A DNA stretch of 58,295 nt, filler included, from Sphacelaria rigidula (Eukaryota): NCBI GenBank assembly GCA_964200075.2. It is 3 parts of 3 records of this genome, joined end to end, with 100 filler letters (N's around TTAATTAATTAA, not from the genome) between each part and the next. Parts side by side here need not be neighbours in the genome. Positions count along the whole stretch, not along the records: positions 19,471 to 38,835 come from CAXNAA020000680.1; 2 more parts are not named here. One strand, given 5' to 3'. Positions 8,401 to 48,000 of this stretch are shown here, in pieces. Under the pieces are notes generated by a model. The model was not told where the DNA came from, made no database searches, and worked only from the letters and a program-made list of their open reading frames with translations. The translations under genes and the position numbers were made by a program. How positions within the stretch are numbered: position 1 is the stretch's first letter; each line of letters opens with the position of its first letter.

Positions 8401-8792
8401 GCGGTCTTTCCACGACGATATTCGCTGTTCCAAAAAGTGTTCGCCCGTCCAAACAGTTCCTTGTGGGATCCCGGCGTATATATTAACGTTGTGGGTGAGC
8501 TTTGCGGTCTTCCCAGGAGGATATTCGCTGTTCCGGGAAATATCTGCCTGCTCAATATTCTCATTTGGGCTCAAGACGTATATGGTAACTTTCTTGGTGA
8601 ATGTTTTGGTCCGAACACGACGATATTCGCTGTTCCAGGAAATTTTCCCCTGTCAAGAATCTCCCATTTGAGGTCCAGGCGTATATGATGATGTTGTGGG
8701 TGAGCTTTGCGGTCTTCCCACGACGATATTCGCTGTTCCAGGAGATATTCGCCTGTCGAAAATGAGCAATTTGAGGTCCGGGCGTATACGAT
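5490..8792. repeat. ~103-bp unit tandem satellite, ~27 copies, interrupted by a MITE
   Basis: The anchor CGATATTCGC (or a close variant) recurs at 6010, 6113, 6321, 6424, 6532, 6635, 6738, 6841, 6943 and 7046. Conserved blocks are GCGTATATGATAACGTTGTGGGTGAGCT and GACGATATTCGCTGTTCCAGGAA.TATTCGC. Confidence 0.95.
7383..7916. mobile_element. Tc1/mariner-type MITE (534 bp) inserted into the satellite
   Basis: 20-bp TIR CAGTAGTGGGCGGTCT(A/G)ACT with TA duplication (7381-7382, 7917-7918). Removing it restores the satellite unit ...GAAAA-TA-TTCGCCTGTCGAG. Confidence 0.9.
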
Positions 8793-9842
8793 GAATCATC
8801 TTGACCCATTAATGCTTTGAGCTGTGCCTTCGAGAGCTTGTTTCCTACGTATATCTTGACGGAAAACCGTATTGCTATTCCCTCAGGTGGGAAAACAGTC
8901 TGGTATTGCCCGCGGGAACTCCGATGGTGGTGCTGGCGCGTCGGCGGTCGTTCGTGTTGGTGGCGTTCGACGGCTTCGCCGGACGAGAGGGAAGGGTACG
9001 ACTACATCGCAACTGCGTGTTCGTCGTGGAGAGGCTGAGCTGGTTCGACGTTGCGTTGGTTGCGGCTGCAAGGTGCGTTCTCTATGTTTGTACGATTAGG
9101 TGATTATCGCGGAATAGCTGATCCCCAAGGAATGTGTTTGGTGTGTATGCGTATCGTTATGACTACTTTGGTCGCACTTCTGTCAGGGTTTTCCTCGATG
9201 CTGTAAATCTGGATATCAGCGGATGTGATTTGGTGTGCACACGGCTAGAGTTGATCTATTGGCTTCAAAATTGGGCTATCTTATGTATATATCGGTATGT
9301 TCGGCGCATCTGATCCACGGATGGAGGCAGAAAAAGACGGACGCATCATATGCTTGCCCGGCAGACATGGTGCGAACCGGCAGCACAATTTTACAACAAT
9401 ACAAACAGTCCACCAAGTACATGACCAGCTGGCAATTGCGATGTGGCCTCGTACCAGCTGTGTTGCTGGTAGGATCCACAGAGCTAGCGGACTTTGAACA
9501 CAGTGAGTTGTCGCACTAAGTCTGACGGGGGTGCAGGCACCATCCACTGCTGTATTTGACAACCTCGTCACAACAACACTAGTAGCTGCGTGATGGCTGT
9601 TGGTAGTCGTTGACAATTAGGACTGTAATACAGGTCCGATGAACGATATTTGCGTACTTTTCGCGATTGTTGTAGTTGAGTAAAATGTGAGAGGTCTACA
9701 CCGCTTTGAAGATGAGAGTTTCACCTTAAAAACGGGGTTCAACATCGTGGTGAGGTCAAACCTGCTTTTAAAATTTTGCCAATTTCGTGTAAATAATTCG
9801 AAGAACGAGTGAAGTTTTGAACTTTCGGCTAGTTTCTTTGTG

Positions 9843-19370: not shown

Positions 19371-19470
19371 NNNNNNNNNNNNNNNNNNNNNNNNNNNNNN
19401 NNNNNNNNNNNNNNTTAATTAATTAANNNNNNNNNNNNNNNNNNNNNNNNNNNNNNNNNNNNNNNNNNNN
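19371..19470. other. Assembly gap (100 bp, N-TTAATTAATTAA-N linker)
   Basis: N runs with a central six-frame stop linker. Confidence 0.97.
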
Positions 19471-22900: not shown

Positions 22901-25900
22901 ACACAGCGCCCCGGTGGCTCAGTTGGTAACCTCGAAACCTTCTGACGGTTGGGTCGTGGGTTCAAATCTCGGAGTCATCTGGGATTTTCTCTCACATCAT
23001 GCCCAACGGTGGAGAGCGACTATTGCGTGTGTATACAAAATTCGGCGTAACGGTCGACGAGGGAAAGGGTGTGCTGAGCCCCCCTCGCGATAAAAAATAA
23101 AAGGCAAGCACCGCAGAAGGAAGGTGGAGTACTAAAAACAAATAAAAAAGGAAAAAAACTCCCGTGTTGACCTCCCTCCTGTGTGACCCCGGCTGGTGCG
23201 CCCACATATACCGAAAGGTGTAGACCGGCGACCAGAATCGATGGGACGACAACACAACACACACTCATTTTATCTTGTTTTTACATTCTGTCCTGATTGT
23301 CGCACTTCGGGTGTGCACACACAATGACTATCGGGGTCGTAATTGATTCGCTCATTTTACAGCGCGTGCATAAATACGTTCGAAGGAAGCACAATGCAGT
23401 GCACTTGAGGGCAAGAAGGCAGTGGGAGCCCAATATCCCCACTTCCCGCGGTAGGGTACCGAGGTGTTCGATCTCCGCGGTAACCGCAATACTATGGTTT
23501 CATCACGTGGGTACCGCAGTTTTCCGACCCTCCACCGTGCCGTACCGTACTGCACCGTCGGGAAACCGTATGCCATGGTCGTGGTGTTGAGCGATACCAA
23601 GATAATGAAAACACTGCTCATACCGCATCGCACTCTGAAGGTACCGCGCCCTGTGTACCGCGGTTGTACTGCGAAATCATGCACCATGCTATGGACTGAA
23701 GAATAAAAAACGCTCGGGATGATCACCCCGAAACATCTCAACGGGCACCACAAGGACCGTGACCGAAACACGTCGAAAGTAACTGTACAAACGAGCCCGA
23801 ACAAGCACGCACAGACACAAACAAACAGCATGAGTGCATTGCGTCTAGCGCTAGGTCTTGGTCATCCATACACACGGGTGTTTGTTCCACGACGATCCGT
23901 TCAGTGTTAGAGGGGGGGCGACCGTATACATACCAAAAGCAGCGCTCACGACGCAGAAGTTGTCCATTTGAGCGTATTATATGGCGCGTGTCTGGCACAA
24001 ACAATCGGATCTCCTTCAATTTTGACTTGATTCGACCCAAGCGAAGAACGTGGTACTTGGCCGATTAATAGCTACGGGTCGAGCTATGCTTTGCCTATTC
24101 TTATACGGTGGGATCGGAAGTGGGTGTGTGGTTGTGCCTTGCGTTCGCGCTGTTCAATGCAGCCTATCTATGAGCATACACAAGCATTTGTAAGTGTGGA
24201 ATTACGGGGTACACAACGATCCAGGAATAGTATGCAAAATGGTCTTTGAGGTTGCAGAACGGGAAATTGTTGCTGGTTCTGCAATATAGAGTTGTTCAAT
24301 TGTGACTCGTAAATAAACCACGGCCAATCATTGTAGCTCGTGAGCCGACCGAAGATTATGGGTCATGGGCAATCGTGATCGGGCGGTGTTCCACGCTTGC
24401 CTCTCTTCACTCCCTTTGTACTCCTCTCTCCACCCGAGTTCCAGCGTGTGAATAATGACGACTTAAAACACATCGTTTTCTTTCACCTAAGACATATTGC
24501 AAGGGATGGTATTATGTCTGGGCACACAGCACGGGGCTTTTGTTGCCACACAATCTGATAAACACGGTCATCTGTATGCGTTAACGTGAAGTTCGATCTT
24601 CACTCACAGTTCTTCGATGGAGGACGAAGAAAAAATGGTTGAAGAAGTGAAGACTTCGCTGGAGACGCAGGCAGGGACCTTCGAAGAAAGGCTGTCCCAC
24701 ATTTGAGCCACTTGGGAGAATGCTGGCGGACTGCAATACAGATTCGTCGGTGGAGTACAGCCCAAATATTCTGAACTGGTGAGGGGGCAAAGACCGCTCC
24801 CGGTCATCGAGGTGGAGTCATCTTCGATGGCCTGCTGCCTGCTATCTGTGAGGTTGAGATTGCAAGAGGTAGCAGCCTCGCCGCAGAATCTCGGGCAGTA
24901 AGCAGCATCGAAAGTGCTGTTACCGAGCTTGGAAGTAGAGTAGAGTTTCCCTTGTGGAGTAGGCGTTTTGAGATTTTGCCCTATCGACGATTGTGGACAG
25001 GCATGTACTACAGTAACTGACATGTCGGCAGGCGATCCCCCCGTGACCTCACGGACCGCGACTTGCTAAGCAGATGTTTGACAACAATTTCCCCCATGCA
25101 AGTTGGCGTATGTTGTACGATTGGTTCTTGCCGAGAACCCTCTCCGAGAAGTCGAAATGGAAATGCTTTTTCAACGAATGAGAGATGAGGAAGAAGGAGC
25201 GCCCGATACGTTTTTCGGGCGAGTAGTCAAGATCATGGGGGTGCTAGGATAATCGAAGGTAATCGTGCCTGTGGAGAAGGTTAGCTTCAAGATGGTTGAG
25301 GTGCTCACGATCGACTATGAACACAAACAGCGCACAATCTTGTGCAGAGAAAACATCACTTGTGCCGGGACAGGGGCAAAGGCGAGAGAGACATACATGC
25401 TAATGTCTGGGAATTGTACGAAAATTCGTAGCGTATGGCAGGCTTTCGTTACGAGCAAGCTCACGCGCCGAAATCGCAATCAAGAGAGTGCTGCAGGTGG
25501 TGAGGGTATTTCCAGTGGTACTGTAGCCACCAAAAACGACCAAAACAAGCGTACGAAGAACGTAGGCAAGACGTTGGACGACATGCGGAACAAGCATCAC
25601 CGTTGCTTAGAGCCCAACGATCGATGGTTCAAGTGCACCACACACGTCATCCTCGCCGCGAAAGAGTCACAGAGCGACTCTCGTGAGACTATATAGCGTG
25701 TCTATCGACTGATACGCATGGTAAGAAGGGTGAGAGCGCGAGATTCGTAAGGATGGGCACTGACAAGTAGATAGCTGACAGTGGTGCGATCTTTCACATG
25801 GCTAGATCGCCTGACTTGCTCCGTGACTTGCAACCATCCGAGAATAAGGTCAAGATTAGTAGTGGCACTGTATCAACGTTGAGGGTTCCGGATCGTTGAC

Positions 25901-28900: not shown

Positions 28901-31900
28901 CGACTACGCCCATAAGGCGGAGGGCCGACATTCTGTTTCCTGTGTAGCCATTTCCTGTAGGGGTACGCTAGTGTGTTGGTTATCTAGGACGCAGAAGTGC
29001 GTCGACATATCCACCAGTGAGGCAGCATATGTAGCAGTCAGTGGCAGTTGGAGTCAAGGAGGCTCTATCTGTGAGGGGGATCCTAATGTTGCCCAGTCTG
29101 GGGCCGATGTGCGTTGGCGTTTTTGAGGGAAACAAGGGGGCGGTAAACTTTCCTAAACACCCATTAACCCTTAGACCGCGAGGGTAGTCTTATCTGGATC
29201 ATGCGCACTTTTTCAAGTGAAATTGATGCGGATTCATCAGATGATCTACTCTCGCTGTCCAAGGGTTAAGCTCGTCCAACATCAAGCACCTTCACGTACG
29301 CTACCCTTTTCTAGGAAGCTGGCTGCCGGTGGTGGCATCTCGATAAAGTATCTTTGATCAATAACCAGTATGCGGATATTTTCGCGAAAACCACTGGTAA
29401 GTAGGTCTCGAAAGACACCGCGATTTCCTCTTGGGCAGGGGCTAGGGTTAACTCTATTTTTTCGTAGTGGACACTATTATTTGAGGTAGGCGATGATAGT
29501 AGGGAGTCCGACCTACTGTAGTTTCTTCGATAGCAATCAGATCAGTGCTTACGCTCGTTAGCCGATGCACGCAGGGGAGGTGCTCAATATAGCTCATCGA
29601 CGAACATCAACCAACATTTGTGAAAGAGAAAGTACGGGATGCACAGTAGTCCGGAAATATTTTCCGAAAGTTCTTCGTGGTTGGAGAACAGGAAATTGTT
29701 CCTGTTCCTAGAATCAAGAATTGTTAACTTGTGGGTCGCGAATGGACCACGGGTCGTGGCTCGTGAGCCGACCGGAGGTCATGGTTCTTGGGCAGTCGCG
29801 ATAGGGTGCTGCTCCACGCCCACACCTACTGACTTTTTTCCTACACCCCTCTCCACCCAATTTTCTCCGTGTGGATAGCAATACTAAAGACTTGAAACGC
29901 ACGGCTTCATCTTCTTGAGATACACTACAAGAGGGCAGTATTTTGTCTGGGCACACAGCACGGGGCTGTCGTTGCTACACCGCCATTTAATCAGCAAGAT
30001 AATCTAAGTATGTGCTGTGTGACGGACGTGTACCGCACTCAGGACCATTACCGTACGCCGCTGTTAATGTTCGCCTTCACGCATCTGTTTCGCCAAATAT
30101 CTTAACTTATTCTTCGAGAACTCAATGATCATTTTCTGAAAAAGAGGCCATCAATCAGACAAAACCCTAAAGCTGCTCCTATAGGAGAGCTACTACAGCA
30201 AGCGTATCAGGCCTCGTGGAGGGGCATTTTCTGAACTGAAACGATTGATTCATTAATTGACAGCTTCGTACTCTCAACCGTGTCCTCTACTCTCAATCTC
30301 ACGAAAACCTTGTAGACCGTGGGTAAAAATATTTCCCGACCACAACCGTTTTTTCGGAAAGGAAAAACATTTCATCAGAAGCAATGACCGGTCTTTGTGG
30401 GGAATACGGACAAAGCTGTGGACACAGTTAGTGGCTCATCTCGCTGGGGACAACAAAAATTTGGCATGCAGTCTCACCCGCAAGCTCTCCTGTGGGAGAG
30501 AGACGAAGACTACTTATACGAATAGTATACGGCGCTTGGAAGGAAGAAAGTCAAAGATATAATGAAGAAGAAATGTTTTTTGCAGTACTTTATTGTTCAC
30601 TACATCGTAGTTGTACGACGTCATCACCTCGGACTACCCAACAATCGAACGATTCAAAGCACAAAATGCAGAGGCTGTGAAGTGCGGCAAGATCCAGTCC
30701 CTCTCACAAGCTTGTCCACAGATGCCTGCAGGAGCCTCGTCCCTGACCTCCCGCGTAAAGGCTTGTTCAAGTGCTTCGCGGGTGTAATACCACCTCTAGT
30801 GGGTACAAAAAACGCATATACTATCCAAAAACGCTTAAATTGGCGATTCAGCGCAGATTTTCGCCGGAATAAGGGGCTTAAAGGATTGTGCCACCTTGGA
30901 AAGACTGCCGGGTCGACGAGGGAAAGGGACCGCTTGACCCTTCTCGCGATGAAAAGGTACGGAAGAAGAAAGGTGGAGAACTGAAGCAAAACAGAAAACT
31001 CCTGAGCTGCCCTTCCTCCTGTGTGACCCCGGCTGATGCTCCCACACAGACCATGAGGTGTAGACTGGCGTGTATAACAGACGAGATGACTTATCACACA
31101 ACACAACCCATATCGTCGAAACCGCTCGGCAGCGTGCGCGCAGGGTGATGCTGGAGGCGCCGATTTGTCGAAGAAAAACATACACACACACTTCGCCCAA
31201 GACACCATCTGCACCCCCCTCGTCCGAGGGTTTTCCGTCTGCGTTGGGTTGGGATTGGGTCAGGATTACCATTATAGTTTGGTGACAAGAAGAATATATG
31301 TCAAGACTCGCTTACATTCGACCGACTCGAGGGGGGTAAACTCATCTCCAGCAATCGATAGTGTGCCACGAGAAAAATCGTAAAAGAGTGCATCGAAGTA
31401 CAGATAGGGAAACGCCAACTGCACACGCAGAATGGGAGTCCTAGTCTGCAAGTTGGGAGCAACACGCCGACTCTTTTTAACACGGTTTCAAGCACAGTAT
31501 GTGGCAGCTATTTGGGGCGCTTCTTGTGCTGCGAAAGAAATGTCTACTAAAAACAGTCGATCATCGAAATTTAGGATGGAGCTTTTCATCGAGAATGAGA
31601 ACCTGGAGGATTAAAATCCTCGTCTACACACCAAATCTTCAAAATATGGTTCCATTCCTTCACTCACTGGTAGCTGTTGACAACTGATACACGCCCTACA
31701 AATATGGATTTCGATAACCGAAATTTCGGGGTCCTAGATGAAGAAAAATATCTGGGGAATTTAGGTGATCCGATAGGATCGCCAAAGTTCACTGAAATTG
31801 ATTCTTCATCTAGGACCCCAACATTTCGGTTATCGAAATCCAAGTTTGCATGGCGTGTAGTACTTGTCGACAACTACCAGTAGATGAAGGAATGGAACCA

Positions 31901-34900
31901 TATCTCGAAGATTTGATGTGGATACGAAGATTTTAATCCTCCGGGTTCTCATCCTCAATGGAAAGCTCCATCCTGAATTTCGATGATCGGCTGTTAAAAA
32001 AATCTATTTTGGCCCAGCCGAGATTTGCCAGGGTACGGGGCTGAGCGGGTTCTACCACCTCAGAATGACTTGCTGCTGTTTACTCTCCAAGTTGATTCTT
32101 GCGCACATTCCCTTCGCCGAACAAGCGATTTCTCAAACGACCCCAGAAATACAGCACCGTGTCTCTGAGATCGGCATTGTAATGCGTGAGAGGGCCACGT
32201 GCTTAAAGGACTGCATCGGAATTTAAACATCCCTATGGTAAGGTTAGGGTTAGGGTTAGTGTTAGTGTTCGTGTTAGGGTTGTGGTCAGGATCGTGGTAC
32301 CTGCAGGGATTGGCCCGATTGGTTTTGAAAAACGTCGATGCTGAGGTGTTTTGAACTTGTACGGCGCGGTCCTCTAAGCACGCGGTCCTCTCACGCATTA
32401 CAGGCATGTGTTTTATGGAAGAACTCAAAGGTTCCTGCGAGATGTGTGATGAATCGTTTGACTGACGAAGAGTCGCAGTGGGCGTAAAAAAGATGAGAAA
32501 AGTGCAGTGGAATAATCTCGGAGAGTACAGCCAATGAAATCGACTTGTGTGTACCCACGACAAACAAGTTGCTCTCCACTGTTGGGCGTTGTATGAGAAA
32601 AAAGCTCACATCGTTTGACTTCACCGCGATTCGAACTCACGTCCCAACCCTCAAAATTTTTCGAGGTTACCAACTGAGCCACCTGAACAACCGATTGCGT
32701 AACCTGGAAAGATTCGAAGCTGATTCAGAGTGAAAGCCCAAAAGTTGTTCCTCACTAGATACAGAACGCAAAACTGACCCGACATGAACATATTTGGTAT
32801 CTTAGTGACCCCCACGAGCAAGCGAACAGTCTGACATGCTCAGATTTTTCTCGTGTCCGCTGCCGTGGCGCTATCAGTGGAAACGTTTCTATTGTAGGCC
32901 AATCAGCGGCCTTCAAATTGTTCTGAAATTAAAAATGCAAAGTTCCGACTCAATTCCTACCCATTCTCATCACGAATCAAACAGTAGTAGCCGCCATCAA
33001 CTCGGGAATCTAACGCAAAAAGACATGTTTAAAAACTGTTTGTATGGGATCGAGTTAAACCCCAAAACGTGGTATTTCGGTGGTGTGGAGTTTTGGCGTC
33101 GTCGATTTTCCACTGATAATGTGCATCGAAGATCCAGACGGCCTCTTGACGTTTTCCCTTGTAACTCTCGTAGAAACGCGACGATCATCCTCAAACTTGG
33201 CAGTTTGGGAGATATGGGTGTTACGAACGGAAAACAAAAACGTCGAAGAATGCAATTTTTCTATCCGATCGCTACCAGCTTCCGGGGGTCCCCGCATGAA
33301 GACCTCTAGAAGTCGGTACAGATTGCTTGAAAATGTATATATTTCACACCCTGGAAAATACAATATGTTTCCAATATATATTAGTCGATCATATTGGAAT
33401 TTTGCGATATATTGCCGGTGTAGTATATATTGGTACCCTTAGACTGTACATGTATTGCGGGCCCAATATATATTGATGTCGTGGGACTGCATACATATTG
33501 TCCGCCCGATATATATTGGTACTATTGGGTTGAACACGTATTTGTCCCATCAATATATATTGGGGCAGGGTGGGCGATAGCATATTGCACGACCAGTATA
33601 TATATTAGGGTCGCATTGATGAGAACATATTGACCGGTCAATATATATTGGGGCCGCGTGGGTGCCAATGTATTGGCCGGTCAATATATGTATTGGATAT
33701 TTTAAGTATGGTGTACGCTTTAAGAGAGATCCAGACGCGATGGATGCCGGAGCCCGTGCAGATTGGGAAAAGCTTCGAAGGGAGCCGCAGAAGTTCGCAT
33801 GCATTACTCTGGGAAGTTGTCGAATGCGTTTGATATATATATATATATATATAGATATGTATATCGGTCAGAAAATATGACCCGGTATATATGTCTCCTG
33901 ATACCTATCTGGCCACCAGTGCGGGGCCGCCCACCCCCTTTCCAGCATGTAATATTAATATATTGGCTAAACATCACGACGACACAAAACGAGGGTCGAT
34001 ATGCGCCTTTTGGTACCCCTGTGGTCACCGGGGCTGTGTTGCTTATACCCTGGACAATATAATATATTGCAATATGATACCAATACTTCGCATTGGAGCC
34101 AGCGCAAATATTTTCCTTTCAATATATGTTGTGTTGAGATGCCTTCGGAGATATTGAAGCAATAACATATATTGCTCGTGTCATGATCATGAAGTAATGT
34201 ATGTCAATATATATTGGACATGCAGTTGCTCCGAGAATAAAACATTCAATATGTATTGCGCATGGCGGCCGTGTGTGTATTGAAGTGTCAATATATATTG
34301 AGTCGAAGCGATGCGTAGCATATTGTTACTATAATATATATTGAACGCAAACCAAGCAGAAGTATTGTTTTTCCAATATATATTGCGCACGCTGATCGGA
34401 TAGCTATTGTGCAGTCAATATATATTGAACACGCTTGCGGAGGAGTACATGAGCTTTTTAGGCATGTAAAATACGTCTTTGAATGGCGCCCACGAACAAA
34501 GGACTGCCCACGATACTAATTCCAATACACTTTCCAATCTATATGTCGAAAATCAATATTTTGCTACACCAACATGTTGTATTGTGACCGTCGGTTCCCT
34601 CGTGTATTGTCTGCCCAGTATACATTAGACGCATTGACGCACGACATATTGGGGCGGCAATATATATTGGCGCTTCGGGTGTCGAGTATATTGAATCGTC
34701 AACATGTATTGACCTCGGGTGGCAGCCAATATATTACTCGACAAACATATATATATTATTGGTGCCTTCTCGCACCAACATATTACTCGGCCAATATATA
34801 TTGAGGTGACGCGTGTCGTGATATATTGTTCGGTCGATATATATTGCATGTCGCAAGCCTTGACATATTGATGGCACAATATATATTGACCCTCTCTCGT

Positions 34901-37687
34901 GCCATCATATTGCTCGCCCAGTATATATTGACCACCCGACGCGTCGATATATTGAGCGGGCAATAATATGTATTACATTGGTCTTGTCCAGGGTGTGCCA
35001 TATTTCGAGATGATTCGCCCCGAGGTAGTCCGAGGAATGTTTGTACAAAGCTACCTTGCGTCACAAGGAAAGCTGATCCCAAACGGTCGATTTAAGCTCA
35101 AGCGCACATGGAAAACATCGGTAGAATACCATAATCACGTTTTTCAGAGGGGGGGGGGGGGGGGTGAGCGTACTTCTGTGTACTTGAGCGCACCAATGGC
35201 CCACTGCTTACGCCGTTTATTGGAAGTAGACCTTTAAAATTTTGGATACGGGTACTCTGAGATATATATATATATATGTATAGAAGGGCTGTATGAATGG
35301 TATATTTTGGTTGTTTTCCGCCAGATATCCAGAGTCCCAGGAAGGGGGTACGCCGTAACCCCCCCCAAAAGACCTCATTCATGCAGCCCTTCCCAACATC
35401 TGAGTACCCGTATGCAAAATTTCAGGGTCTACGAGCTGGTTAAGATTGAATGCCCCAAATTCATTCCCCGGGATTTCCTCACGCCGTTTTTTCGAGCTAG
35501 ACCACGAAAACTTGCACACATGTTCTTGAAGCACTATCTAAAACTCGAAAACCGTTTTTGTTGTTGTTGGTGTCGAGATAGTCGGGAACTGACCCCTCCC
35601 CCGGTCAAGTAGGTCAACTGTGACCTTGGATAAAAAGCTACCAACAAAAAAAATAGAAGTAAAACCCGGTCTTCGAGTCGTAGATAGTGCCTTCAAGAAC
35701 ATGTATGTGTGCAATTCTTCGTGGTCTAACTCGAAAAAATAGCGCGAGGAAATGCCAAAACGTGCGCTGAAGTATAAAAAAGTATGCAATTACTTGATCA
35801 AAGCACAGAATCGCCCTCTTGGGGGGTTGTTTCCACGCAAGACCCAGCCGGTTCAGTTTTTTTAGCTGAGCAACGAAAATAGGTACACATGCTCCTTGGG
35901 ATACCACCTAACCCTGAGATGTCAATTTTTTGGCGTTGGTGCATTCTGTACCGGTTTGCTGTTTTTTTTTATGCTGGGACCCCCGGAAGCCGGTAGAGAA
36001 CGGAGATAATTTGAAATCTTGCCAAGAATATAATCTTTCCAATTGGAGCATCAATACCTACGGAACTGCCAAGTTTGAGGATGATGTGAGCTTTTCTCCA
36101 ACAGATATAAGGGGAATCGTCTCGAGGCTCCGTGGGTCTTTCGCACGTATCATCAGTGGAATTAGACGACACCCAAGCTCCACATCACCGAAACATTACG
36201 GTTTTGGGCAAACTTCGACCCCGTTGGAACCGTTTTCAAATCTGTTTCCCCCGTTAGATTCCTGAGCTGATGACGGTTACTACGATTTGAATCATATGAA
36301 CATTCGGTGGAAATTGGGCTTGGATACGTGTTTTCAATTTCGGAATAATAAGTTGAAGGCGCTGATTGGTCGAGACATATTTTTGTCCATGGCGCCACCA
36401 CTATAGCCTTGACCAAAGATCCAGCCATGTCACCCTTTTCGTCTGTTCATTGCGGTCAGTATGATATCACATTTGTGCATATTGGCTGGGTATTACGTTC
36501 GCCATTAGCCGGGGAATAAAGTTTGGGTATTCAATCTGACCCAGCTTGTATAACACCAAAAAACGGCGTGAGCAATCGCCGGGGAGTAAATTCCGGTCGT
36601 TCACCTTGAACCAGCCTGTATGACAGTCTCGACCAGCGTTTCAGGTAGACCTCAGGCCGTTGTTGCAGCAGCCGCAGTTTGCCGCAAAAACGGAGGACCG
36701 CCAGAGGGTAATTTTTGGGGATATACCATAATATAAGCAATATGCACCAGAAATCGCTCAAAAATGAGTGCTTTTCAGGTTGATTCGGGCATTTTACCAA
36801 TTTGTCGCCTTCGGCGACAAGAAAGGGCTCAAGCCTGTTCTCGTCTTTCGTGAGAAATAACGTACCCCCCAATTTTTATTACCGCCTACGGCGAAATTAC
36901 GTGCGCTTAAAATTGTCCCCTTGCGGCAAAGCTGCAACAGGGATATCCGCGGGACGTGCGCCTCTTCAGAATCTCCATCAGTTTGTTGCGGTGCCGCAAC
37001 GCCGCATCATCTATCTGAATGGTTGGTCGACTCCAACCAAGTATACAGTCAACCATTGCTTTAGCTCGTTGAACCGGGTACTGTTGTTGTAGGTCTGCTG
37101 CAGGTTGGAGCATTCCTCTGCAGGAGCCATTTCACAAACTAGATGAAAGGTTCCCGATCGCAGGAAGCAATCTTCGGCAGTCAGCGCCATAACTACAATT
37201 ACTCAGCGTTGTATGTTCAGTAGAACGGTACGGACAGACAGCACAGACAGTACAGCCCAGCAGGATTGGAGCACTGCCGCCATATCAGGGAACCAACAAG
37301 TCAGGGAAGGACCTTCGCAAAGGCAAAATGGATAAGAAGGTGGATCCGTATACACTACTTTCCATACTACAGTAGTAGTCACACCGACGGCTAGAGGCAG
37401 CGTACCTGAATGATGCGCGAAATTTCATCGCCTACGAATTTGCTCAGCTCATCTCGGTGCTGTAGAACATCCGGCATAATGCTCCCCAAGAAACCCAGTC
37501 TCTCGGTGGCATCTTCCAGCATGGCGATAATGCGATGCGATTGCTCCGGCCCCAAGGCAAGATCGTCCCCCCTTGCCACCACAACCGCGGAAGCACCAGC
37601 ATTACCGGTTTTCATTCGATTGCTGCTTGGGGTTTCGCCGAGGACTGCCGGCCCCGCCGCCACTTGTTGCCGGACTACATCGGTCAT
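19980..37687 (-). CDS. DRC9: Dynein regulatory complex protein 9 / IQCG-like, 5' part; join of exons 37687-37406, 22641-22552, 21325-21158, 20135-19980
   Basis: All four exons have canonical splice borders and join in phase 0: ...SHRIIAMLEDATERLGFLGSIMPDVLQHRDELSKFVGDEISRIIQ|EQRQLEARYEKLIAQRSTLKGLANKSRYKE|IQAEIQEVSRALRESTKNLGRNLKDNPNISGNLFKIQRER...|TRSFQALVAMVEDD...VKREKE. From memory this resembles the IQCG motifs '[21 protein letters not shown]' and 'KIQIDR'. The C-terminal IQ motif is not in the window; the paralogue DRC10/IQCD is not fully excluded. Confidence 0.8.
22908..23264 (+). mobile_element. tRNA-derived SINE, apparently full length
   Basis: Pol III A box TGGCTCAGTTGG (22915-22926) and B box GGTTCAAATC (~22959); no cloverleaf; ends in an ACAAC-like tail. 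The head is shared with 32567-32684 and the 3' part with 30910-31108. Confidence 0.75.
24151..24550 (+). repeat. 5' LTR of the copia element (~400 bp)
   Basis: TG...CA bounded and collinear with 29581-29979; shares GCTCGTGAGCCGACCG and GTCTGGGCACACAGCACGGGGCT. Confidence 0.8.
29168..29265. mobile_element. 98-bp piggyBac-like MITE inserted into the copia RNase H region
   Basis: TTAA duplication (29164-29167, 29266-29269) and CCCTT...AAGGG termini. Excision restores the RNase H-like reading KHPLSSSNIKHLHVRY. Confidence 0.88.
29581..29979 (+). repeat. 3' LTR of the copia element
   Basis: Starts with TG directly after the polypurine tract; collinear with 24151-24550. Confidence 0.82.
30910..31108 (+). 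mobile_element. Retroposon 3' end homologous to the SINE tail
   Basis: GGTCGACGAGGGAAAGGG...CCTCCTGTGTGACCCCGGCTG...GGTGTAGAC.GGCG...CACAACACAAC is shared with 23051-23262. Confidence 0.7.
31554..31993. repeat. 440-bp fold-back palindrome (MITE-like)
   Basis: ~215-bp arms are reverse complements (e.g. GGATTTCGATAACCGAAAT / ATTTCGGTTATCGAAATCC); centre GATCCGATAGGATC at ~31773. Confidence 0.92.
32178..32402. mobile_element. TGT...ACA MITE (Ginger-like) with TTAGGG tract, copy 2
   Basis: TIR TGTAATGCGTGAGAGG...; 5-bp TSD GGCAT; internal GGTTAGGGTTAGGGTTAGTGTTAGTG. Confidence 0.85.
32567..32684 (-). mobile_element. tRNA-derived SINE head, second copy
   Basis: The minus strand reads GGTGGCTCAGTTGGTAACCTCGAAA...GAGTTCGAATC...GCCCAACAGTGGAGAGC, matching 22912-23020. 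Confidence 0.75.
32860..33340 (+). mobile_element. Dispersed repeat family copy, interrupted at 33345 and resuming at ~34998-35055
   Basis: Homologous to 11160-11760. Sequence after 34997 (GAGATGATTCGCCCCGAGGTAGTCC...ACAAAG) matches the continuation at 11645-11690. Confidence 0.72.
33345..34997. mobile_element. TIR-bounded non-coding element carrying ~25 units of a ~43-bp conserved-motif / variable-spacer array
   Basis: TIR CACACCCTGGA / TCCAGGGTGTG; CAATATATATTG or close variants recur at 42-45 bp intervals in three blocks; the element interrupts another repeat. Confidence 0.8.
35935..36400 (-). mobile_element. Dispersed repeat family copy, inverted relative to 32860-33340
   Basis: The minus strand reads GGTGGCGCCA...CCAATCAGCGCCTTCAA...TTCCACTGATGATACG...CCTCAAACTTGGCAGTTCCGTAGGTA. 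Confidence 0.75.
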
Positions 37688-38835: not shown

Positions 38836-38935
38836 NNNNNNNNNNNNNNNNNNNNNNNNNNNNNNNNNNNNNNNNNNNNTTAATTAATTAANNNNNNNNN
38901 NNNNNNNNNNNNNNNNNNNNNNNNNNNNNNNNNNN
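38836..38935. other. Assembly gap (100 bp, N-TTAATTAATTAA-N linker)
   Basis: Same layout as 19371-19470. Confidence 0.97.
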
Positions 38936-39098: not shown

Positions 39099-42000
39099 CC
39101 CCTCGTGGCGAGTGGAGGTGTCCATGTCCAAGAAGGCGGTGTTGGCTCCTTCCCCCGGAAACAGCCGCTCCAGCGTTACGAACTCCCCGGTAGCTCCGCG
39201 CCGCACCGGTAGGTTGGGCTGTTTCACATACCAGATCGAAATTTTGTGTTGACGTTGCGTTTTTTTTTTCCAGCCGAAGATACAGAAACACAAGAAATTC
39301 AAAGGAACGGAACAAAACAAAACAAAACAAAATGGGAGAGAGAGGGCAAGGGAGAGAAAGGGGGGCAAGGGTTTACACGAGGATATGACATGATACAAGG
39401 GTCAAGTAATGGGTGCGAGGGAAGGGAAGGGAAGTGGACAGGGGCGGAAATCCTTGAGAACCTCATGAGAATACTTGATATGCACTTGATATATGAAATA
39501 CTGTGCGGGAGAGGCATTTAGAATGTCCTGTTCAATAATCCGGTGAAAGGTAGGGCAGCGAAAAACGAGCCCGAGGGATGGGGCACAGGTCGTGGTTTCG
39601 TGACCCCAGAAGTGTGAATCAAATAGACGAGGAGAAAAAAAAAAGACGAAACATTACAAGTATTCAAGAGAAGATACAACCATTGAACAATTCAGGCAAA
39701 AGGCTACAATTGAACATCGGGTGCGCGAATGGAAATAAAACGGAGAAAGGGTAAAAAAATAGAGCAGAACAGGGTGTTCACGCTGCACTTCACGTACGCA
39801 CGAAGGGACTCTGAAGTCGTCCGTCAAACGCAAGAAACGAAATATATATATGAATATATGGGCTAACCGCCCTGGAAAAAGGAACACATTCAAACTGTTG
39901 TTTGGAAAACACCAAGTGTCCCCTCCACTTCAGCTTTACCCTCAATCCTCGAGAATGAGTAGGGATGATCACCTGGAAGTAACCTGCCTCCAGCCAAGAT
40001 CTCATCTCGGACCCCTCGAACGGCCCCTGCACACGCATCTGCGGGTCCAAATAGTACCACGATGCTCCCCCCCCTGCTCCTGCCCGTGCCGCAGCCGCTT
40101 GCGCGACTTCAGCCTCCTCCCTCTGCTGTTGCTGTTGCCTCCTCTGCAGAGCCTCGACCTGTGCCTGGTGTTGTTGCTGTGCCGCCTGCTGCGCCGCCTG
40201 TTGCAGCAGCTGTGCGTGCTGCAGGGTCGGTTGGGCGTGCGGTATGGACGGACGCTGAGAAGCCGGTGTTCCTGGGGCAGCCACGCCCAGATCCGAGCGC
40301 AACGCGCCTACACCCTGTTGTTGCTGCTGTTGTTGCTGTGCCTGGCGCTCCAGCAGAAGCCTGCGGCGCTGCTGCGCCAGTTGATCTTGCGCTTGTTGTT
40401 CCGCCCGCTGCAGCTGCTGCTCTTGCAGCTCGTGCATCTGTAGCTGTTGTTCTTGAGCAAGCCTAATCTCTCTTTCTCTGGCCTCACGCTGTTGTTGTTG
40501 CTGCTGCTGTTGACGTTGGCGGTCCTATTTTTTTTGTGTGTTTTTACGAACGGTTTCAAGAGACGTTGATTGAGTTTTTTTCATTACAATGCGTGGGTGA
40601 GCACACTAAAAAAAGCACGAGTACAGCATTCGTTTTCGGAGCAATTCACGACAAAAAAATGAGGTAGGGGTGGGGTCTCTCAAGACTCTCGCATGCCCTA
40701 GTCACAGGACCACTGACCTCGCATCTCTTCAAAGCCGGGACGAAGCACACCTGGCTTTCGCTGGACAGGGTTCTATATCACCGGGACCCAAGCGCCGTTA
40801 TGTGTTAGGCGAGTCGTTCGAAGGATAAGCCACATTCTACCAAGATTGTTAGACCTGAAGATGTCCTAATCATTTGGAAATTGACAACAGATTATATGAT
40901 GAGCTGCTTCATTCTCTGGTATCGCCACTTCTAGAAGGCCATGGATTGCAAATTGCCTCCATGTGTATTTCACCATAATAACACCGCAAGGTGCAATCAT
41001 CCCCTTTGCACGAAGTTGAAACTCTCTACCCCGCACGGTGTCATGTAACTCGACCATCACCATGATTACCGCAAGAAAACGCCAGCGAGAAAAAAAGGTA
41101 AACTTGTTGGCTAGCTTACTGAGGGGCGTGTTTTACAGTGTCGTTGCCAACCGACGTCAATCCTCAAGGGGGTCGGTGGGGTGTTGGGGGGCACACACCC
41201 CTTCCCCCCCTCACGGAAACACCTCATGTTCTTGATGAGACGACCATTCAACAACACGGCATGTGTCGCGACGGCAGGAAAACCCATTACGAAGAATGAT
41301 AAGTACGCTGCGTAACATATTCAACACGTACATGGAGAGTCGTCTCTGCTTGCATCTGCTGGGCCAGGTGTAAAGCCGCCTGCTGCGCCTGACGCTGCAA
41401 TCAAACATACAGCAACAGACAACATATTCACATCAACGGCAGGACAAGGTGAATATATAATACAGGCACAACTAAAAACATTAGGCTGGCTTGAAAAAAA
41501 TAGGCATCTGTTCGATCGCGTTCCCGCGCTCCGGACGACGAGAGCCCCGGGCCGTGGGCAGAGAGGAGAGTGTCCTAGACACTCCCCAGCACAGAATCAT
41601 CTTTCAAAATCCACAAAATCAAACATCACGACAGCCTTACACTTCGCAAGCGCTGTCAAAACTTCAAGTCTTCGTGCACCCGCGTCCTGACTTGATTCCC
41701 TTGCAGTTGTTGCCCATCATAAAACTTAGATTCGGCCTACGCGATTGGTCTGACATATTGGTCGGAGACACAGCACAATACAGTGACTGTCGATAGGAAC
41801 TACGAAAGTGCGACGACCACATGTCAGTGAACATGTCACAGTCTGACCATCCACATCGGGACGTAAGGGCGGTCGTGCGGTGGAAGCCAGACAAATAGGC
41901 TGCCACGACAGCATACAACGGTCAGAACAGCACTCTAACTGAAACTGGTATATTGCTCCCTGGAATAGTATCGTCTGACCACAGACGATGCACATTTATC

Positions 42001-45000
42001 GGTTTCAAGTAACTGTCCGTTGATCAACGGCACACCACGGCTCGGCAACGAGTGGGAACGATTCTCCGTCTCGAAAGGGACGCGTGGTGAGTTGTCAAAT
42101 GAAAAAATGCCAGCAACAAGTGAGTACACCCTCCCCCCCCCCGCGATCACCTGCTGCTGCTCTACAAGTTGCTGCTGCTGCTGCTCAGCAAGCTGCTGCT
42201 GCTGTCGTTTTCGCAGCTGCTGCTGCTGCTGTTGCTGCTGTTGCAATAGGTGTGCCTGGTGCTGCACCCTCTGTTGCTGCTCGTACATGTCGCGATGCGG
42301 CTGTTGCTGCTGCGTAGTTCTCAGACGGGCAGCTTCTCCCTCGCGCTGCAAACGCTGAACACGAGGGGGACCCAGCAAACACGTGCATGGTGAATACGCG
42401 AGCGAGGAATCAAAAACAGATGAAATCGGGTATGATATATTCGGCCCGTGGTCTGTTGGGGGCACGAAGGTGGAGAGGAGGGAGAAGGGAGCCCATCAAC
42501 ACATCAAATTGATCAGTGACACGAGAACACTTATTTTCCATAGAGGGAACAAACTACACGCGTGAAATAACCTTGGCAATAAAGCCTTTGATCACCGCGG
42601 CGGATCTGTTGAATCGCTCTGTTCACTCCGAAGACTCGTATCCAAGACCTTGATTCTTCCCCCTGGTGGCTGAGGATGTGACAAGGTGAAACGTGGACAC
42701 GAGACAGGACCCACCACAAGCGGCGTGAAAAGCCAACACTTCATGGCGGACGAGAAAACACGTTCACTCACCGAGGCAAAGAGAAAAAAAAAAAAGGCGT
42801 CAATGACGACGACGGAACGTGGCACTACGCGAAACTTCCCGCACATCTTCTTTGGATAAAGTCGTCATAATCTCACCTGTTGCTCGCTGAGGTCAAGCAG
42901 CTGCTGTTCCCTGCTTCTCAGCTCCGCGGCGAGTTGCTGCTCCCTCTGCTGCTGCTGCTCGGCGTGCAGCAGCTGCTGCTGCTGCAGCAACAGCCGCTGC
43001 TGCTGGATGCGGCGCTGCATCACTTCTTGCTGTTGCTGGTCGACTTGGTCAGGCGGCTGCTGCCGCTGCTGATCCTGTCTATGAAGCATGGAAAGCAGGT
43101 CTGCTGCGGCATCTCGACGAGGTTGCTGTTGCTGTTGCTGCTCCTCCTGCTGCCGCTGCTGGTACTGAGAAGTGATGACCACAGTAAAGTATAGTGCAGG
43201 TGGTGTGGTATGGGTCGACAGCGGAACGAAGAAAGGAATAGGCAGGGGGTGTAGGTCACACAGGCAGGCCGTCATGCGCCAGCAGACAACGGAAAAGGGC
43301 CTCAGGCTACTACTGGAGAGAATAAATACAACACGAATGTCGCGTAATCGTACATCGATAAATATTGGTTCATCACAACGATACGGTGCAACGGGGCACG
43401 ATACGTCATGTCGGTAGTTGGAACCGATGATAGTCGCACTTCGTCCGTCCCCGGTTACAAAGCACATTCTACAACGGCAAGTAACATGTGCACCGATATA
43501 TCAGCTGTGGTACGAAGCAGCAGTGGTGAATATCAGCGACCCCGCCATGCTCACAGTGTGATGGCTGATCGCCTGTAAAATCGCAGCCTGCAAGCCATTT
43601 CAGTGTATCAGTCGCACGACTCCACATTGCCACGACACAAGTGGTAGCCGACCACATGCTCATCCTTTTCTTCAATTGCTGTGATTATTGCATGCTATTG
43701 GAGGTGAAGCTGAACCGAAAATGCCTTTTACCTTGGATGGCGCTTCCGACGAGGACACCCCGACAACGAGTACGGGGGTAGGGGGGGGTTGGCTTGAACT
43801 GCGCGTCTCGCTTGTCGACGGCAGCCCAACAGCAGGTACTTTTGAGACAAAAATCCTTCCTGTGCCGACACACAACCCCTGGCATACAGCGACGATCCAC
43901 CAACACACCTGCAGTACGCCCTGCTCCTTGAAAAGAAAAAAAACACGCAACTATGTTCCTTCCCCTTTATCCTCGCGACTACCCGCACCCCGTCACGCAA
44001 GCGTGTATGTTGATGTACCCAAGAACTCACTGCTTCTCTAAGCACGGCCATCCGTTGTCGCTGATGCTCATACAAGGCGGCATCAGCCGCTGAGGGCCCA
44101 GCAGCCGTCGCTGTCGCTGTCGCCGCCGCCGTTGCTGCCGTCGCCGCCCCCGGCAAAGGTGCCGCGGTTCCCGTCGCTCCCGAGGGGGCTGCAGCTGGGG
44201 ACGGGAACAAGCCAAGTTCTGCCAAAATGCTGGCGCGTCGCGACGCTGTCGTAATCGAAGGCTCGCCCGCCGGTGCCATTGCCCACGGTTCCTGTCAAGA
44301 CGAGAAACATTGATGACCACGACGATAAAATTGGCCTGAAAAAGAAAAGCGTCCGAGTGGTACATCACAGCTTTTCTCGTTCGAAACTCTTGGGCATGAC
44401 TTTTGCGATAGCTTCGGATTCTCGTTACTACTAAAAAAGCAGTTTTTAATACAGCGACATCACAACCAAGTCAAAGATAGTTTAGTTGGCAAAGGTGGGC
44501 CTCCCCTGAAAAGTGACCAGTGTGTACTCCTTGGTAGTCGAACGGTTATACCGTGAGCAACCCGTGGGGGCAAAAACGTGCATCACCGGCGCCAACAGCT
44601 CAGATATAATGGCTGAACCTTTGCTGGCACCATCGTCAAAAGTTCGCTCAAGAATTCTTTCGAGTCACCGTGGGTTTTTTCCATCTGCCATGCGTTATAT
44701 TCAATCACGTCACACTTCATACTATAGGTGGCACACGCCCCCTCACTCTTGTTTTTGGCCTCAGGCTGCTCCTTGTGGCAAGCAAAAGAAGCAATCTGGA
44801 TAAAGAGCCTTTCATCAAACTTCTCCATCGTTTCACGCTCCAAAAAGGAGCTTTCCAACAAATCTCAGATTTTTGGGGAAATTGATAGATCTCCGAGAAA
44901 AAAGCAAGTTTGAGCAAAAAAACTGCGGCCATCGGAAAAACGCACAGGTGCGCTGGAACTGTCTTATCGAGTGCAGCGAGGCATTCCAGGGTGTCAAAAT

Positions 45001-48000
45001 CCGCCCAGCTTTCTTTCACGGTGTAACACGATGTAAAAGCTCCAAGAAGGCACTTTTCCAGATTTTTATTTTGTCTGCCATAAGGAGCACCCACAGGCGG
45101 GGCTTTTTCGTATTATTTTCTCGATCGTAAAAAATGCGACGGAAAGAAAAAAAACGATCTTCACGTCGCCATTCCAACATAAGTGACGTGGACATAAATG
45201 ACGACCTTCCCGTACTATCGGATCGAATTTCTTATTTCCGCCCCATTTTCAAAGTCAAATTCGTTCGGTAAGAGACCCTCTCATGTTCGGTTACTGCACA
45301 TCGGCGAAACCACCAAATGACGTCCTTTACTCACAAGCGGCTGCACGCATCACCAGCACACATAAGTCAATCTCTTGGGTGATCTGATCATTTCGATTAT
45401 CACAGTTCACTCAACAACAGTAACCATCCTTTCTTTGGTTCTGGCAATGCACTCAACCCGGGGACCCGGTTCAAGTTAATCTGTCTGTTTCCTCGTTCGG
45501 CATCTGCACCACTTGAATTGATAAAACCCCTCCACCTCACCGCCGAAATTCGGGCGCATGAGAATACGCGAGGTGTAGTGCAGTTGTTCAGCTCCATCAT
45601 GAAGTAACCGCCCATCAGTTCGGGACGTTCGATAAAAGTAAGGGTAGAAAACACTCGCAGCAAAAACTTGATCGATGAGTGCGGATGCGTCATCATTGCG
45701 CTGCTGCTGGAGCGACCCTGGGGCTCTTCATCCCCCAGGGGCAAAACAAACAACAACGTTCCGTGATGAGATATGACGACGCTGCGCAACACCAGAGTCA
45801 CGCGGAAGGATGTACGTTTCCAACCCTAGTACGTACTCCAACTCAGTCTCCGTGAAAAGGAACGACAGAAAGTCACGAGTCTGTGGTGGATGCGTAGGCG
45901 GCGCAACTTCGGAGTGGTGGGACGACGGGTCGGGCTGTTTATAATCCGAGTTGTCTTTCATCTCTCCCACGGGGATAACCGAGGAGTCATGAAGGGGAAT
46001 CCAATTAGCATCGTCATTCCCGTCACATTTCTCCCCTCACAAACCGAAAACCAGATACGAGAACACAGTATCATCACACGCACGCGAGAACAATGAAAAA
46101 CATCTCCGGTGAAATATGAATGTGTATATCCATCTCACCATCAACCAACATACATCCTACATCTATTCGGACGTCCCGAAACAACACTGGCGTGATGATG
46201 CGCGGATAGAACATGGCCAGGATAAATAGGCATATATGGTCTCCCGTTGCCCCTACACATTTGCCAGCAAAAAGCAGAGCAGCGATGTCCCTCCTCGCTG
46301 TTATAGTCCAAGCCAAGTCTGGGTCTCATAGACGTATGCTGCGCTGCACGACTTCATTTTACAGTAACTACGCGGAGCATGCATATACCATCGTCGGGAA
46401 CATGGCTGATGCGCATTGACGATCCGTTCAAAACTTACCCGAAAAACGTGTGAGAAGATAGTTTCGAAAAGGAGATACCCTCCATTGGTACAAGGGCTAC
46501 TGAACAGCTCATTATCACGATAAAATGGAGAAAAAAATGATCATTTCATGTGCTCGCTTGCATTTAGCCCAAACACCTCCCCAAACCGTCAAGTCGTGAT
46601 CCGCACCAACCGAATGGCCTCGACACTACAAACTTGCCTCCACATCCGCTGCGACCAACTCCAACAGCATACTCGCGGTGAAAAGGACTTGCAGGAACTC
46701 ACCTCGGGCGGCGAATACTGCCCAACGACCGTCCGCGCCTCATCGTCGGACCTGGTGGATAATGACGATGTAGCCTGCGGAGGCAGCTGTTCCTCATCGA
46801 CATCAGGGTTGGGCTCATGACGCAGCGCTTGCTGCTGTTGCTGTTCCTCCCGCTGCTGTTCCTGCGCAGCAGATTCGCGACCAGGTTGTTGTTGCTGTTG
46901 CTCTGCCGGCTGTTGCTGACCCGCGGGGGTGGCGGTGGCGGTAGCGGTGTTCGCTGCTTGGCGCTTCCGTTGGAACTCCTCGTCTCTTGCCTTGCGCCTT
47001 GCTTCCTCTTCCTGCTCGTGCAGCTCCACACCCTCCTGTTGAATAATGGTCGATGTTATTTTGACTTGAGTTTTTTCGGGTTGTGGAGTGCCTTCGTCTA
47101 TAAAAGGTATACTGCTTTTTTGTTCATATCCAAAAAGTATGATTTTGCGCCAAAAATGTGGAGTTGAGAAAAAGATCCACAAACATCGCATGAGATCAGC
47201 AAGACGAAGAGAACTTCGTCGCTAGTAGATTATGCCCGCCGGTGAATGGGCAGATTCGGAACTGGCCATAGGCAGTTACACGAATTAGAAGGTGAGACAC
47301 AGAGAGAGAGAGGGTGGAAAACAACACAATTGGTACATACCTCTCGAGACAACGTCACCGAAGGGCACATGGCGTACGGTACAACAGCGGGAATTTCTCT
47401 TCACCTGGGTCCAACACTTGTCCGTCTCTTCTTGTTTCTCGTGACTTTGATACTTCATGACGGTGGATTTCATCACGGGCTTCATCTAGACACGAAGATG
47501 GACACAGACACAATTCAAAAGTCTCTTGTTGCTGACTCGCAACCCTCACCATGCGGCGAGCCATAGAATCCATCTGTTCCTGGAACTTATCCGCCGCTTC
47601 GGCCATCGCATGTAGGTCCATGCCTGTGTCGCAGTCGATTGAAAAAACAGCATACACAAACAGCAGCGCATGAAGCAACCGTAGAAGTAAAACGGGTGAA
47701 AAAAACACACCACACCACACTCCACTCCATGACATACATGATGTGCCGCCGCGCCCCATTGATCGGACCGCTACACGAACACACAAGAGTGTGAAGACAT
47801 CGTGTGTGCTCGAATCTCTCAACAGACAAGGTGCATTTTCCTGTTTTTTTCGTCCCTCATACTCGACAACGACAGTCTCGGAAAAAAATCACGACAATCG
47901 GCCACAGGAGTGCTTATGCTATGCTCGATAATGAGCAGCACGGTCGGTACTCGCTAAATCTTCGGGTGTATTATATACAACTAGCACAGAAGATATGAAG

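What the first reader, a model, noticed from the sequence alone, without database searches (positions are those of the whole stretch)
33345..34997. TIR-bounded element with a phased repeat-spacer array: conserved palindrome plus half-site separated by unique spacers
Seen: unit = CAATATATATTG (12-bp palindrome) + 17-19 nt variable + (C)ATATTG/GTATTG + ~6 nt variable, period 42-45 bp. Unit starts are 33421, 33464, 33507, 33551, 33594, 33639, 33682; 34120, 34160, 34205, 34247, 34289, 34332, 34374, 34416; 34616, 34658, 34700, 34792, 34835, 34877, 34919. The spacers are GC-rich and look mutually unrelated (GGGCAGGGTGGGCGATAG, AGTCGAAGCGATGCGTAG, CGCACGCTGATCGGATAG, ACCCTCTCTCGTGCCAT, ACCACCCGACGCGTCGAT), unlike an ordinary minisatellite that decays uniformly. 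All three blocks have the same polarity, whereas subterminal transposase sites are usually mirror-imaged at the two ends. The array lies between 11-bp TIRs (CACACCCTGGA) and splits another repeat, so it moved as a unit; the flanks ATATATTT/CCATATTT may be a decayed 8-bp TSD. Inference: motif and spacing (~4 helical turns) are constrained while spacer sequence is free, consistent with a phased protein-binding scaffold, a recombinase-site array or, more speculatively, a processed guide-like RNA array. No cas or other effector gene is in the window.
Basis: partly seen in the sequence, partly recalled or inferred. Interest (0 to 1): 0.8.

Follow-up and report, generated by a model that had tools for sequence, protein, structure and literature searches.

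The report
Algal hAT transposon with phased repeats
This is a common broken-down jumping gene (a non-autonomous hAT transposon) of a brown alga; its evenly spaced short repeats are most likely landing sites for the transposase, not a CRISPR-like memory, because nearly every copy carries the same spacers in the same order.

Summary
The element and its 42-43 bp motif array are real. It is a high-copy non-autonomous hAT DNA transposon: 24-bp family TIR, 8-bp target duplications (19 of 24 full copies within one mismatch), and a relic of a hAT transposase BED zinc-finger exon at 33698-33826. It is a deletion derivative of a 2.7-kb parent. A transposase-encoding 6.8-kb relative in the same genome shares the first 16 bp of the TIR. 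The 'phased scaffold' idea is supported: between master lineages the motifs changed far less than spacers (7/414 vs 37/388), and sister hAT families carry the same 42-43 bp grammar, same polarity, with different spacers and degenerate motifs. Best reading: subterminal BED-finger binding sites (palindrome plus half-site, as in Hermes) repeated every four helical turns; binding is inferred, not shown. Abundant 135-bp MITEs with a related TIR lack the array, so it is not universally needed. A new variant of a known feature; modest interest.

The parts
33337..33344 (.). left 8-bp target-site duplication (ATATATTT)
   Evidence: family TSD is 8 bp, exact in 11 of 24 and within one mismatch in 19 of 24 copies
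33345..33368 (+). left TIR (family TIR 24 bp, starting CACACCCTGGACAATA; its inner part holds one CAATA half-site)
   Evidence: 242 exact matches to the 19-mer in the genome, reversed control 0
33372..33693 (+). array A: a first palindrome at 33372, then 7 palindromes at 43-bp period, each unit = 12-bp palindrome + 19 nt + RTATTG half-site + 6 nt
   Evidence: lag-43 autocorrelation z = 15
33696..33697 (.). breakpoint where about 1.07 kb of the 2.7-kb parent element was deleted
33698..33826 (+). relic of the hAT transposase first coding exon, ending inside the BED zinc finger (both Cys kept, His pair lost)
   Evidence: translation; continues into a full C-x4-C...T-HL...H finger in diverged relative L121; aligns with N-terminal exons of hAT loci L193-L198
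33833..33864 (.). (AT)n microsatellite at the end of the transposase relic
34044..34119 (+). internal second left end (TATACCCTGGACAATA..., TIR-like head in the same orientation as the true left end)
   Evidence: TATAC-type termini also occur on a sister family inserted in L194/L196
34120..34427 (+). array B: 8 palindromes at 42-43 bp period
34616..34972 (+). array C: 9 palindromes at 42-43 bp period running into the right TIR, same polarity as A and B
34975..34997 (-). right TIR (decayed in this copy beyond the outer 14 bp)
34998..35005 (.). right 8-bp target-site duplication (CCATATTT, 2 mismatches to the left one)
32945..33336 (.). left part of the unrelated host repeat that the element interrupts
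35006..35080 (.). right part of the interrupted host repeat

Best explanation
A non-autonomous, cut-and-paste hAT transposon of a brown alga. SHOWN: it moved as a unit with 8-bp TSDs and a palindromic AT-rich target preference (RAATATTY); it descends by internal deletion from a longer hAT element and keeps a scrap of the transposase BED exon; its arrays are fixed in content and order within the family; motif and 42-43 bp period are conserved between lineages and across sister hAT families while spacers drift. INFERRED: the arrays are subterminal repeats bound by the transposase's N-terminal BED finger. Each unit offers a palindromic double site and a third half-site (CAATA/TATTG, also present inside the TIR), repeated every four helical turns so that all units lie on one DNA face and can be bound cooperatively by transposase oligomers or bend the end around them. 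The arrays arose by old tandem duplication; selection on the mobilised master copies kept motif and phase; one polarity along the element makes left and right ends unequal, as hAT transposition requires. After insertion each copy decays neutrally.
For: TSD, TIR, copy number. Deletion derivative with transposase N-terminus. BED-like query finds 16 other places (17 matches with self, of 20 candidates), two of them upstream of PF05699 hAT dimerisation hits on the same strand (C18261, C4237); L195 is a 6,779-bp element with TIR CAC(A/T)CCCTGGACAATAG, 8-bp TSD with one mismatch, and BED, second Asp, CxxH, RW and catalytic Glu motifs in order; its last exon matches Pfam-positive L193 at E 2e-18 and brown-algal proteins, 15 of 23 tested hitting PF05699 at E<=0.01. 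Fixed spacers 495 of 498. Motif constraint: 7/414 vs 37/388 changes between young and old consensus, p = 6e-7; L121 10/79 vs 31/95, p = 0.002. Sister arrays: lag 42-43 peak at both L195 ends (z 4.5, 6.3), L194a, L194c and 7 of 21 sampled sister ends (z >= 7.4). Known biology: Hermes BED domains bind a quasi-palindrome plus a third site with crucial phasing (PMC10368747); Ectocarpus hAT-2_Ec32 has CACAC-GTGTG termini and 21-bp TIRs (PMC12477816 supplement).
Against: No binding experiment exists. The direct autonomous partner of this family was not found: L121 is interrupted by an LTR element and ends with its contig; L195 is a sister family with a different motif. L195 exons themselves did not hit Pfam at E<=0.1, its first catalytic Asp motif was found only in L194 and L193, and one decayed parent copy (L151) showed no BLASTP similarity to L195. 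9 of 20 sampled sister loci are 131-171 bp MITEs with both TIRs and no 42-43 bp array, so the array is not needed for mobilisation in every family. In Hermes, internal BED sites beyond 50 bp were largely dispensable (PMC10368747 section 16), so the binder of a 300-bp array could be a host protein. The L121 comparison is a local alignment that motifs help to anchor, which inflates the contrast.
Confidence: 0.75

Rival explanations
1. Same hAT element, but the phased array is read by a host factor or by DNA shape (AT-rich blocks every ~21.5 bp bend the end or position a nucleosome), not by the BED finger.
For: A/T-dinucleotide periodicity peaks at 21.25-21.5 bp in arrays A and C. Hermes needs ~200 bp ends although its internal BED sites are mostly dispensable, and the authors propose a DNA-bending host factor (PMC10368747).
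Against: The A/T periodicity is weak in the sister arrays (power 1.4 and below vs 7-13) although their 42-43 bp period is strong, so what is kept is a sequence motif, which is also part of the TIR; the motif differs between families as the BED fingers do.
Confidence: 0.13
2. The array is a neutral old minisatellite; motifs look conserved only through slippage or gene conversion among AT-rich palindromes.
For: Spacers keep traces of tandem duplication; whole-unit deletions occur (41-42 bp gaps in 3 of 24 copies); after insertion motif and spacer columns decay at similar rates (4.4-5.6%); array-less MITEs thrive.
Against: Motifs are 5-6 times more conserved than spacers between master lineages; the same period and grammar recur in sister families with unrelated spacers and non-slippery motifs.
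Confidence: 0.09
3. A CRISPR-like array processed into ~43-nt guide RNAs, or an array that acquires and loses spacers.
For: Repeat-spacer look and single polarity; a block C stretch folds better than dinucleotide shuffles (z -3.1) and blocks B and C slightly better than spacer-only shuffles (z -1.6 to -2.3).
Against: Spacers fixed in content and order; no new spacers apart from diverged lineages among 100 listed of 247 pattern matches, judged by eye; no compensatory changes between master consensuses (0 two-sided, 10 one-sided, 18 broken) and no covariation in 18 copies (term +0.32); a loop-less 12-bp palindrome suits double-stranded dimer binding; the related coding elements carry hAT transposase motifs.
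Confidence: 0.02
4. A KDZ/Zisupton, P or recombinase-linked element rather than hAT.
For: KDZ elements of Ectocarpus also make 8-bp TSDs and have complex repeated termini (PMC12477816 supplement).
Against: Their listed termini are GGGG- or CAGTA-type, P elements there have CAAGG and 7-bp TSD; the internal relic is a BED exon homologous to hAT loci that share the TIR.
Confidence: 0.01

Closest known systems
hAT-2_Ec32 / Repbase hAT-2_ESi of Ectocarpus (PMC12477816, supplement MOESM3, read in full)
   Same: CACAC-GTGTG termini, TIR of about 21 bp, hAT transposase in a spliced gene, 8-bp TSD assumed; brown alga
   Different: Listed as a single intact autonomous copy of 8,945 bp; no subterminal array is mentioned in the annotation row. 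Its sequence is in FASTA supplements that could not be read, so identity and presence of an array there are untested.
Hermes (hAT) subterminal repeats (PMC10368747; abstract, passages, section 16, first part of Discussion)
   Same: BED finger; quasi-palindrome bound by two BED domains plus a third single site; exact phasing matters; sites antisense at the left end and sense at the right end
   Different: Hermes has one such functional cluster within 35 bp of the left TIR and scattered 4-bp sites; here the palindrome plus half-site module is repeated 7-9 times at a fixed 42-43 bp period over about 300 bp at both ends and once inside
Ac, Tag1, Tol2, Herves subterminal repeats (Herves: PMC3143072 passages; Tol2, Ac, Tag1 as cited in PMC10368747)
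   Same: short repeated transposase-binding motifs at both ends, asymmetric ends, 100-250 bp needed
   Different: in the passages read, motifs are scattered or clustered; no strict four-turn lattice with free spacers is described
CRISPR arrays (recalled)
   Same: conserved repeat alternating with unique-looking spacers, one polarity
   Different: no spacer turnover between copies, spacers related to neighbours, a second fixed motif inside each 'spacer', no cas gene, eukaryotic transposon context

Membership tests
hAT superfamily (non-autonomous member) | 8-bp target-site duplication | tested here: met
   11 of 24 exact, 19 of 24 within one mismatch; at most 1 exact for any other length 2-12
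hAT superfamily (non-autonomous member) | short TIR (about 5-27 bp; recalled range) | tested here: met
   24-bp TIR in family consensus; 242 exact 19-mers
hAT superfamily (non-autonomous member) | descent from or TIR shared with an element encoding BED + RNase H-like DDE core with CxxH and RW motifs + C-terminal dimerisation region | tested here: met
   BED relic in the element; L195 shares the 16-bp TIR start and carries BED, D2, CxxH, RW, E; dimerisation region by homology
hAT superfamily (non-autonomous member) | intact autonomous partner with this family's own ends | tested here: inconclusive
   L121 is interrupted and cut by contig end; L075 (8.66 kb between TIRs) holds nested repeats and no recognisable transposase ORF
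hAT subterminal repeats (Hermes/Ac type) | motif bound by the cognate BED domain and needed for transposition | not testable with these tools
   needs EMSA or excision assay; indirect support from motif constraint
CRISPR-like array | spacer content or order differs between copies (acquisition, loss) | tested here: not met
   495 of 498 cells match same-position spacer; the 3 misses sit at whole-unit deletions or slippage
CRISPR-like array | spacers mutually unrelated and foreign | tested here: not met
   adjacent spacers 41% identical vs 28% in shuffles; foreign origin of single 18-mers not searched
CRISPR-like array | transcribed and processed into unit-length RNAs | not testable with these tools
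   no run on record as RNA, contigs only
CRISPR-like array | conserved RNA structure with covariation | tested here: not met
KDZ/Zisupton | KDZ transposase linked to the ends | tested here: inconclusive
   PF18758 found nothing in the genome but the control never rang either; linked coding relic is hAT-type

The most novel reading that the evidence does not exclude
A brown-algal hAT clade builds its ends as a regular lattice: a three-site BED module (palindrome plus half-site) repeated every four helical turns in one direction along the element, with the right-end lattice made as a direct copy of the left one (87% identical over 282 bp in L195). Sister families keep the geometry while motif and BED finger change together. 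If several transposase oligomers load along this lattice, or wrap it, it would be a natural ruler for hAT transpososome geometry and a set of co-evolving finger-site pairs.
Probability: 0.35. Interest if true: 0.5.

Novelty: new variant of a known kind. Interest (0 to 1): 0.3.

Why it matters
It removes a tempting 'eukaryotic CRISPR-like array' reading and explains the repeat-spacer look as selection on protein-binding sites inside an old tandem repeat. The residual interest is for transposon biochemists: why hAT elements need 100-250 bp of end sequence is open (Hermes internal sites are dispensable yet ends are not), and these strictly phased arrays with family-specific motifs give a clean system to test phasing, polarity and BED specificity.

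Tried and rejected
KDZ Pfam search of the genome: nothing, uninformative. Ten top PF05699 loci: no 42-43 bp array in the short flanks held. L075, an 8.66-kb TIR-to-TIR copy, looked like an autonomous element but holds nested repeats. Two word-seeded protein searches (BED exon, core exon) found no scored relatives; Pfam missed the BED fragments. The two-unit array pattern has 0 matches in viral and in metagenome contigs. Rfam: one chance hit, E 0.58. Expression: no RNA holder listed; four runs laid were contigs only, no verdict. RNA folding: z -3.1 against plain shuffles shrinks to -0.7 to -2.3 with motifs fixed, with no covariation (one search timed out). Single 18-19 nt spacers were not searched in virus collections because chance hits are expected at that size. 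Earlier scan findings: none returned. Literature searches for a phased hAT array or for brown-algal hAT subterminal repeats listed no paper whose title or abstract start describes one; most listed papers were seen as listings only, subscription journals and Repbase are not covered.

Full report
Observation. The stretch 33345-34997 is as described. The palindrome CAATATATATTG occurs 17 times within one mismatch in the window, all inside the element, against 0.06 expected. The 11-bp TIR is exact at both ends. Of 22 listed unit starts, 21 carry the 12-mer with 0-3 mismatches; 34160 should be 34163, and units at 33372, 34743 and 34961 were missed. Joining the two flanks restores a host repeat that aligns across the junction to 5 of 5 other copies tested.

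Family. The genome (244 Mb, eukaryote; nearest named relatives of the transposase are from brown algae) holds many copies: 796 candidates, 40 scored, the best collinear at 83-91% identity; 242 exact matches to the 19-bp TIR start. Of 30 loci fetched, 24 had both TIRs and a length of 1.5-1.75 kb; 6 truncated ones were dropped. In these 24 the TSD is 8 bp (11 exact, 19 within one mismatch; at most 1 exact at any other length), the consensus TIR is 24 bp, and the period is strictly 42-43 bp. Over 134 distinct TIR junctions the target is a palindromic RAATATTY; 6 junctions lie inside other copies of the element and 3 are the internal second end.

Spacers do not turn over. In 495 of 498 copy-by-unit cells the spacer best matches the consensus spacer of the same position; 6 cells were deleted. 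Changes in unit number are whole-unit deletions (41-42 bp gaps in 3 of 24 copies). Among 100 listed of 247 genome-wide matches to a two-unit pattern, all but a few were, by eye, variants of the consensus spacers. Spacers are weakly related (0.324 vs 0.284 +/- 0.006; adjacent 0.41; block A 0.45), the trace of tandem duplication. After insertion, motif and spacer columns decay at similar rates (4.4-5.6%).

Origin. Following an odd long copy (L075) led to an older family; 17 loci give a 2.7-kb parent of which the 1.65-kb family is a deletion derivative, broken at window 33696/33697. The parent holds the start of a reading frame; window 33698-33826 is its last part. A diverged relative, L121, continues it into a complete BED-type finger. 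That finger finds 16 other places in the genome, two upstream of hAT dimerisation hits. L195 is a whole 6,779-bp element with TIR CAC(A/T)CCCTGGACAATAG, an 8-bp TSD and hAT motifs in order. Against this: L195 exons do not hit Pfam directly, and one decayed parent copy shows no BLASTP match to L195; but the L195 last exon matches Pfam-positive L193 at E 2e-18, 15 of 23 of its database relatives tested hit PF05699 at E<=0.01, 8 over the cut-off, and the parent frame aligns with L198 and L194 (phmmer E 1e-8 and 3e-7 in a four-sequence set). The Ectocarpus library lists hAT-2_Ec32 with CACAC-GTGTG termini and 21-bp TIRs (PMC12477816; I read part 2 of section 5, passages and the whole annotation table; the FASTA supplements could not be read and may show whether it has an array). 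The direct autonomous partner of this family was not found.

The phasing is under constraint. Between young and old consensus, motif columns changed at 7 of 414 sites, long spacers at 37 of 388 (p = 6e-7); for L121, 10 of 79 vs 31 of 95 (p = 0.002, alignment partly anchored on motifs). L195 has 42-bp arrays at both ends with a degenerate motif (CRAT-n4-ATYG plus a YATTG-like half-site) and spacers unlike ours; its right array is a direct copy of the left, 87% over 282 bp. A sister TIR 17-mer has 346 exact matches; of 20 loci sampled from the 100 listed (21 ends), 7 ends carry 43-bp arrays (z >= 7.4), while 9 loci are 131-171 bp MITEs with both TIRs and no array, and the rest are truncated or expanded forms. 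So the grammar is clade-wide but not needed by every family. Polarity is the same along each element tested.

Mechanism. hAT transposases bind subterminal repeats through the BED finger. In Hermes two BED domains bind a quasi-palindrome and a third binds a nearby single site, phasing is crucial, and sites run antisense at the left end and sense at the right (PMC10368747: abstract, passages, section 16 and first part of the Discussion); Herves binds a repeated motif asymmetrically (PMC3143072, passages). I infer that each 42-43 bp unit is such a three-site module, set four helical turns apart, and that single polarity supplies left-right asymmetry. Binding is not shown. Hermes internal sites are mostly dispensable, so a host bending protein or DNA shape is a live rival; A/T periodicity peaks at about 21.5 bp here but is weak in the sister arrays.

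RNA reading. A block C stretch folds well against plain shuffles (z -3.1), less so with motifs fixed (z -0.7 to -2.3), with no compensatory changes. Rfam, viral and metagenome scans were blank. Expression could not be tested.

Verdict. A non-autonomous hAT element: membership well supported. The strictly phased, single-polarity palindrome plus half-site lattice is a variant of hAT subterminal repeats that my searches did not find described (mostly listings, open-access library only). Interest 0.3.

Noticed in passing
L195 579-7357 (G000:C9129): Whole hAT element whose right subterminal array is a direct-orientation copy of the left one (87% over 282 bp), an LTR-like duplication inside a TIR element; transposase exons in order, intactness not assessed.
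   Followed up: partly
L199, L202, L207, L209, L211-L214, L217; L197 227-363: Abundant 131-171 bp near-palindromic MITE with the sister TIR, 8-bp TSDs and mirror-symmetric CAATAG/CTATTG sites but no 42-43 bp array.
   Followed up: partly
L194 131-541 and 3047-3520; L196 3115-3500; L201: Further sister families with 43-bp arrays (19+24 bp sub-spacing); one has TATAC termini like the internal end of the window element; an L195-type element sits inside another sister copy right after a CTATTG half-site.
   Followed up: partly
L131, L190, L155, L055, L065: Copies inserted into other copies of the same family; the preferred target RAATATTY resembles the element's own motif, which may favour self-insertion.
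   Followed up: partly
window 34792-34972 and array B: Neighbouring spacers are partly reverse-complementary (fold z about -1.6 to -2.3 with motifs fixed) without covariation; unexplained, possibly chance or old fold-back events.
   Followed up: partly
window 5487-8819: 103-bp satellite array (about 25 copies, 72% matches) with higher-order 311-314 bp period.
   Followed up: no
window 19371-19470 and 38836-38935: N linkers containing TTAATTAATTAA: the window joins separate contigs here, so context across them is not contiguous.
   Followed up: no
window 31552-31995: 220-bp inverted repeat pair (83%), MITE-like; another copy end at 19316-19370.
   Followed up: no
window 22913-22972 and 32624-32683: tRNA-like 60-bp heads, probably a SINE family.
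   Followed up: no
window 39763-46916 (minus strand): CAG-rich, glutamine-rich reading frames, probably exons of a host gene.
   Followed up: no
L121 7800-10000: Gypsy-type LTR retrotransposon (integrase frame) inserted just after the BED exon of the diverged relative.
   Followed up: no
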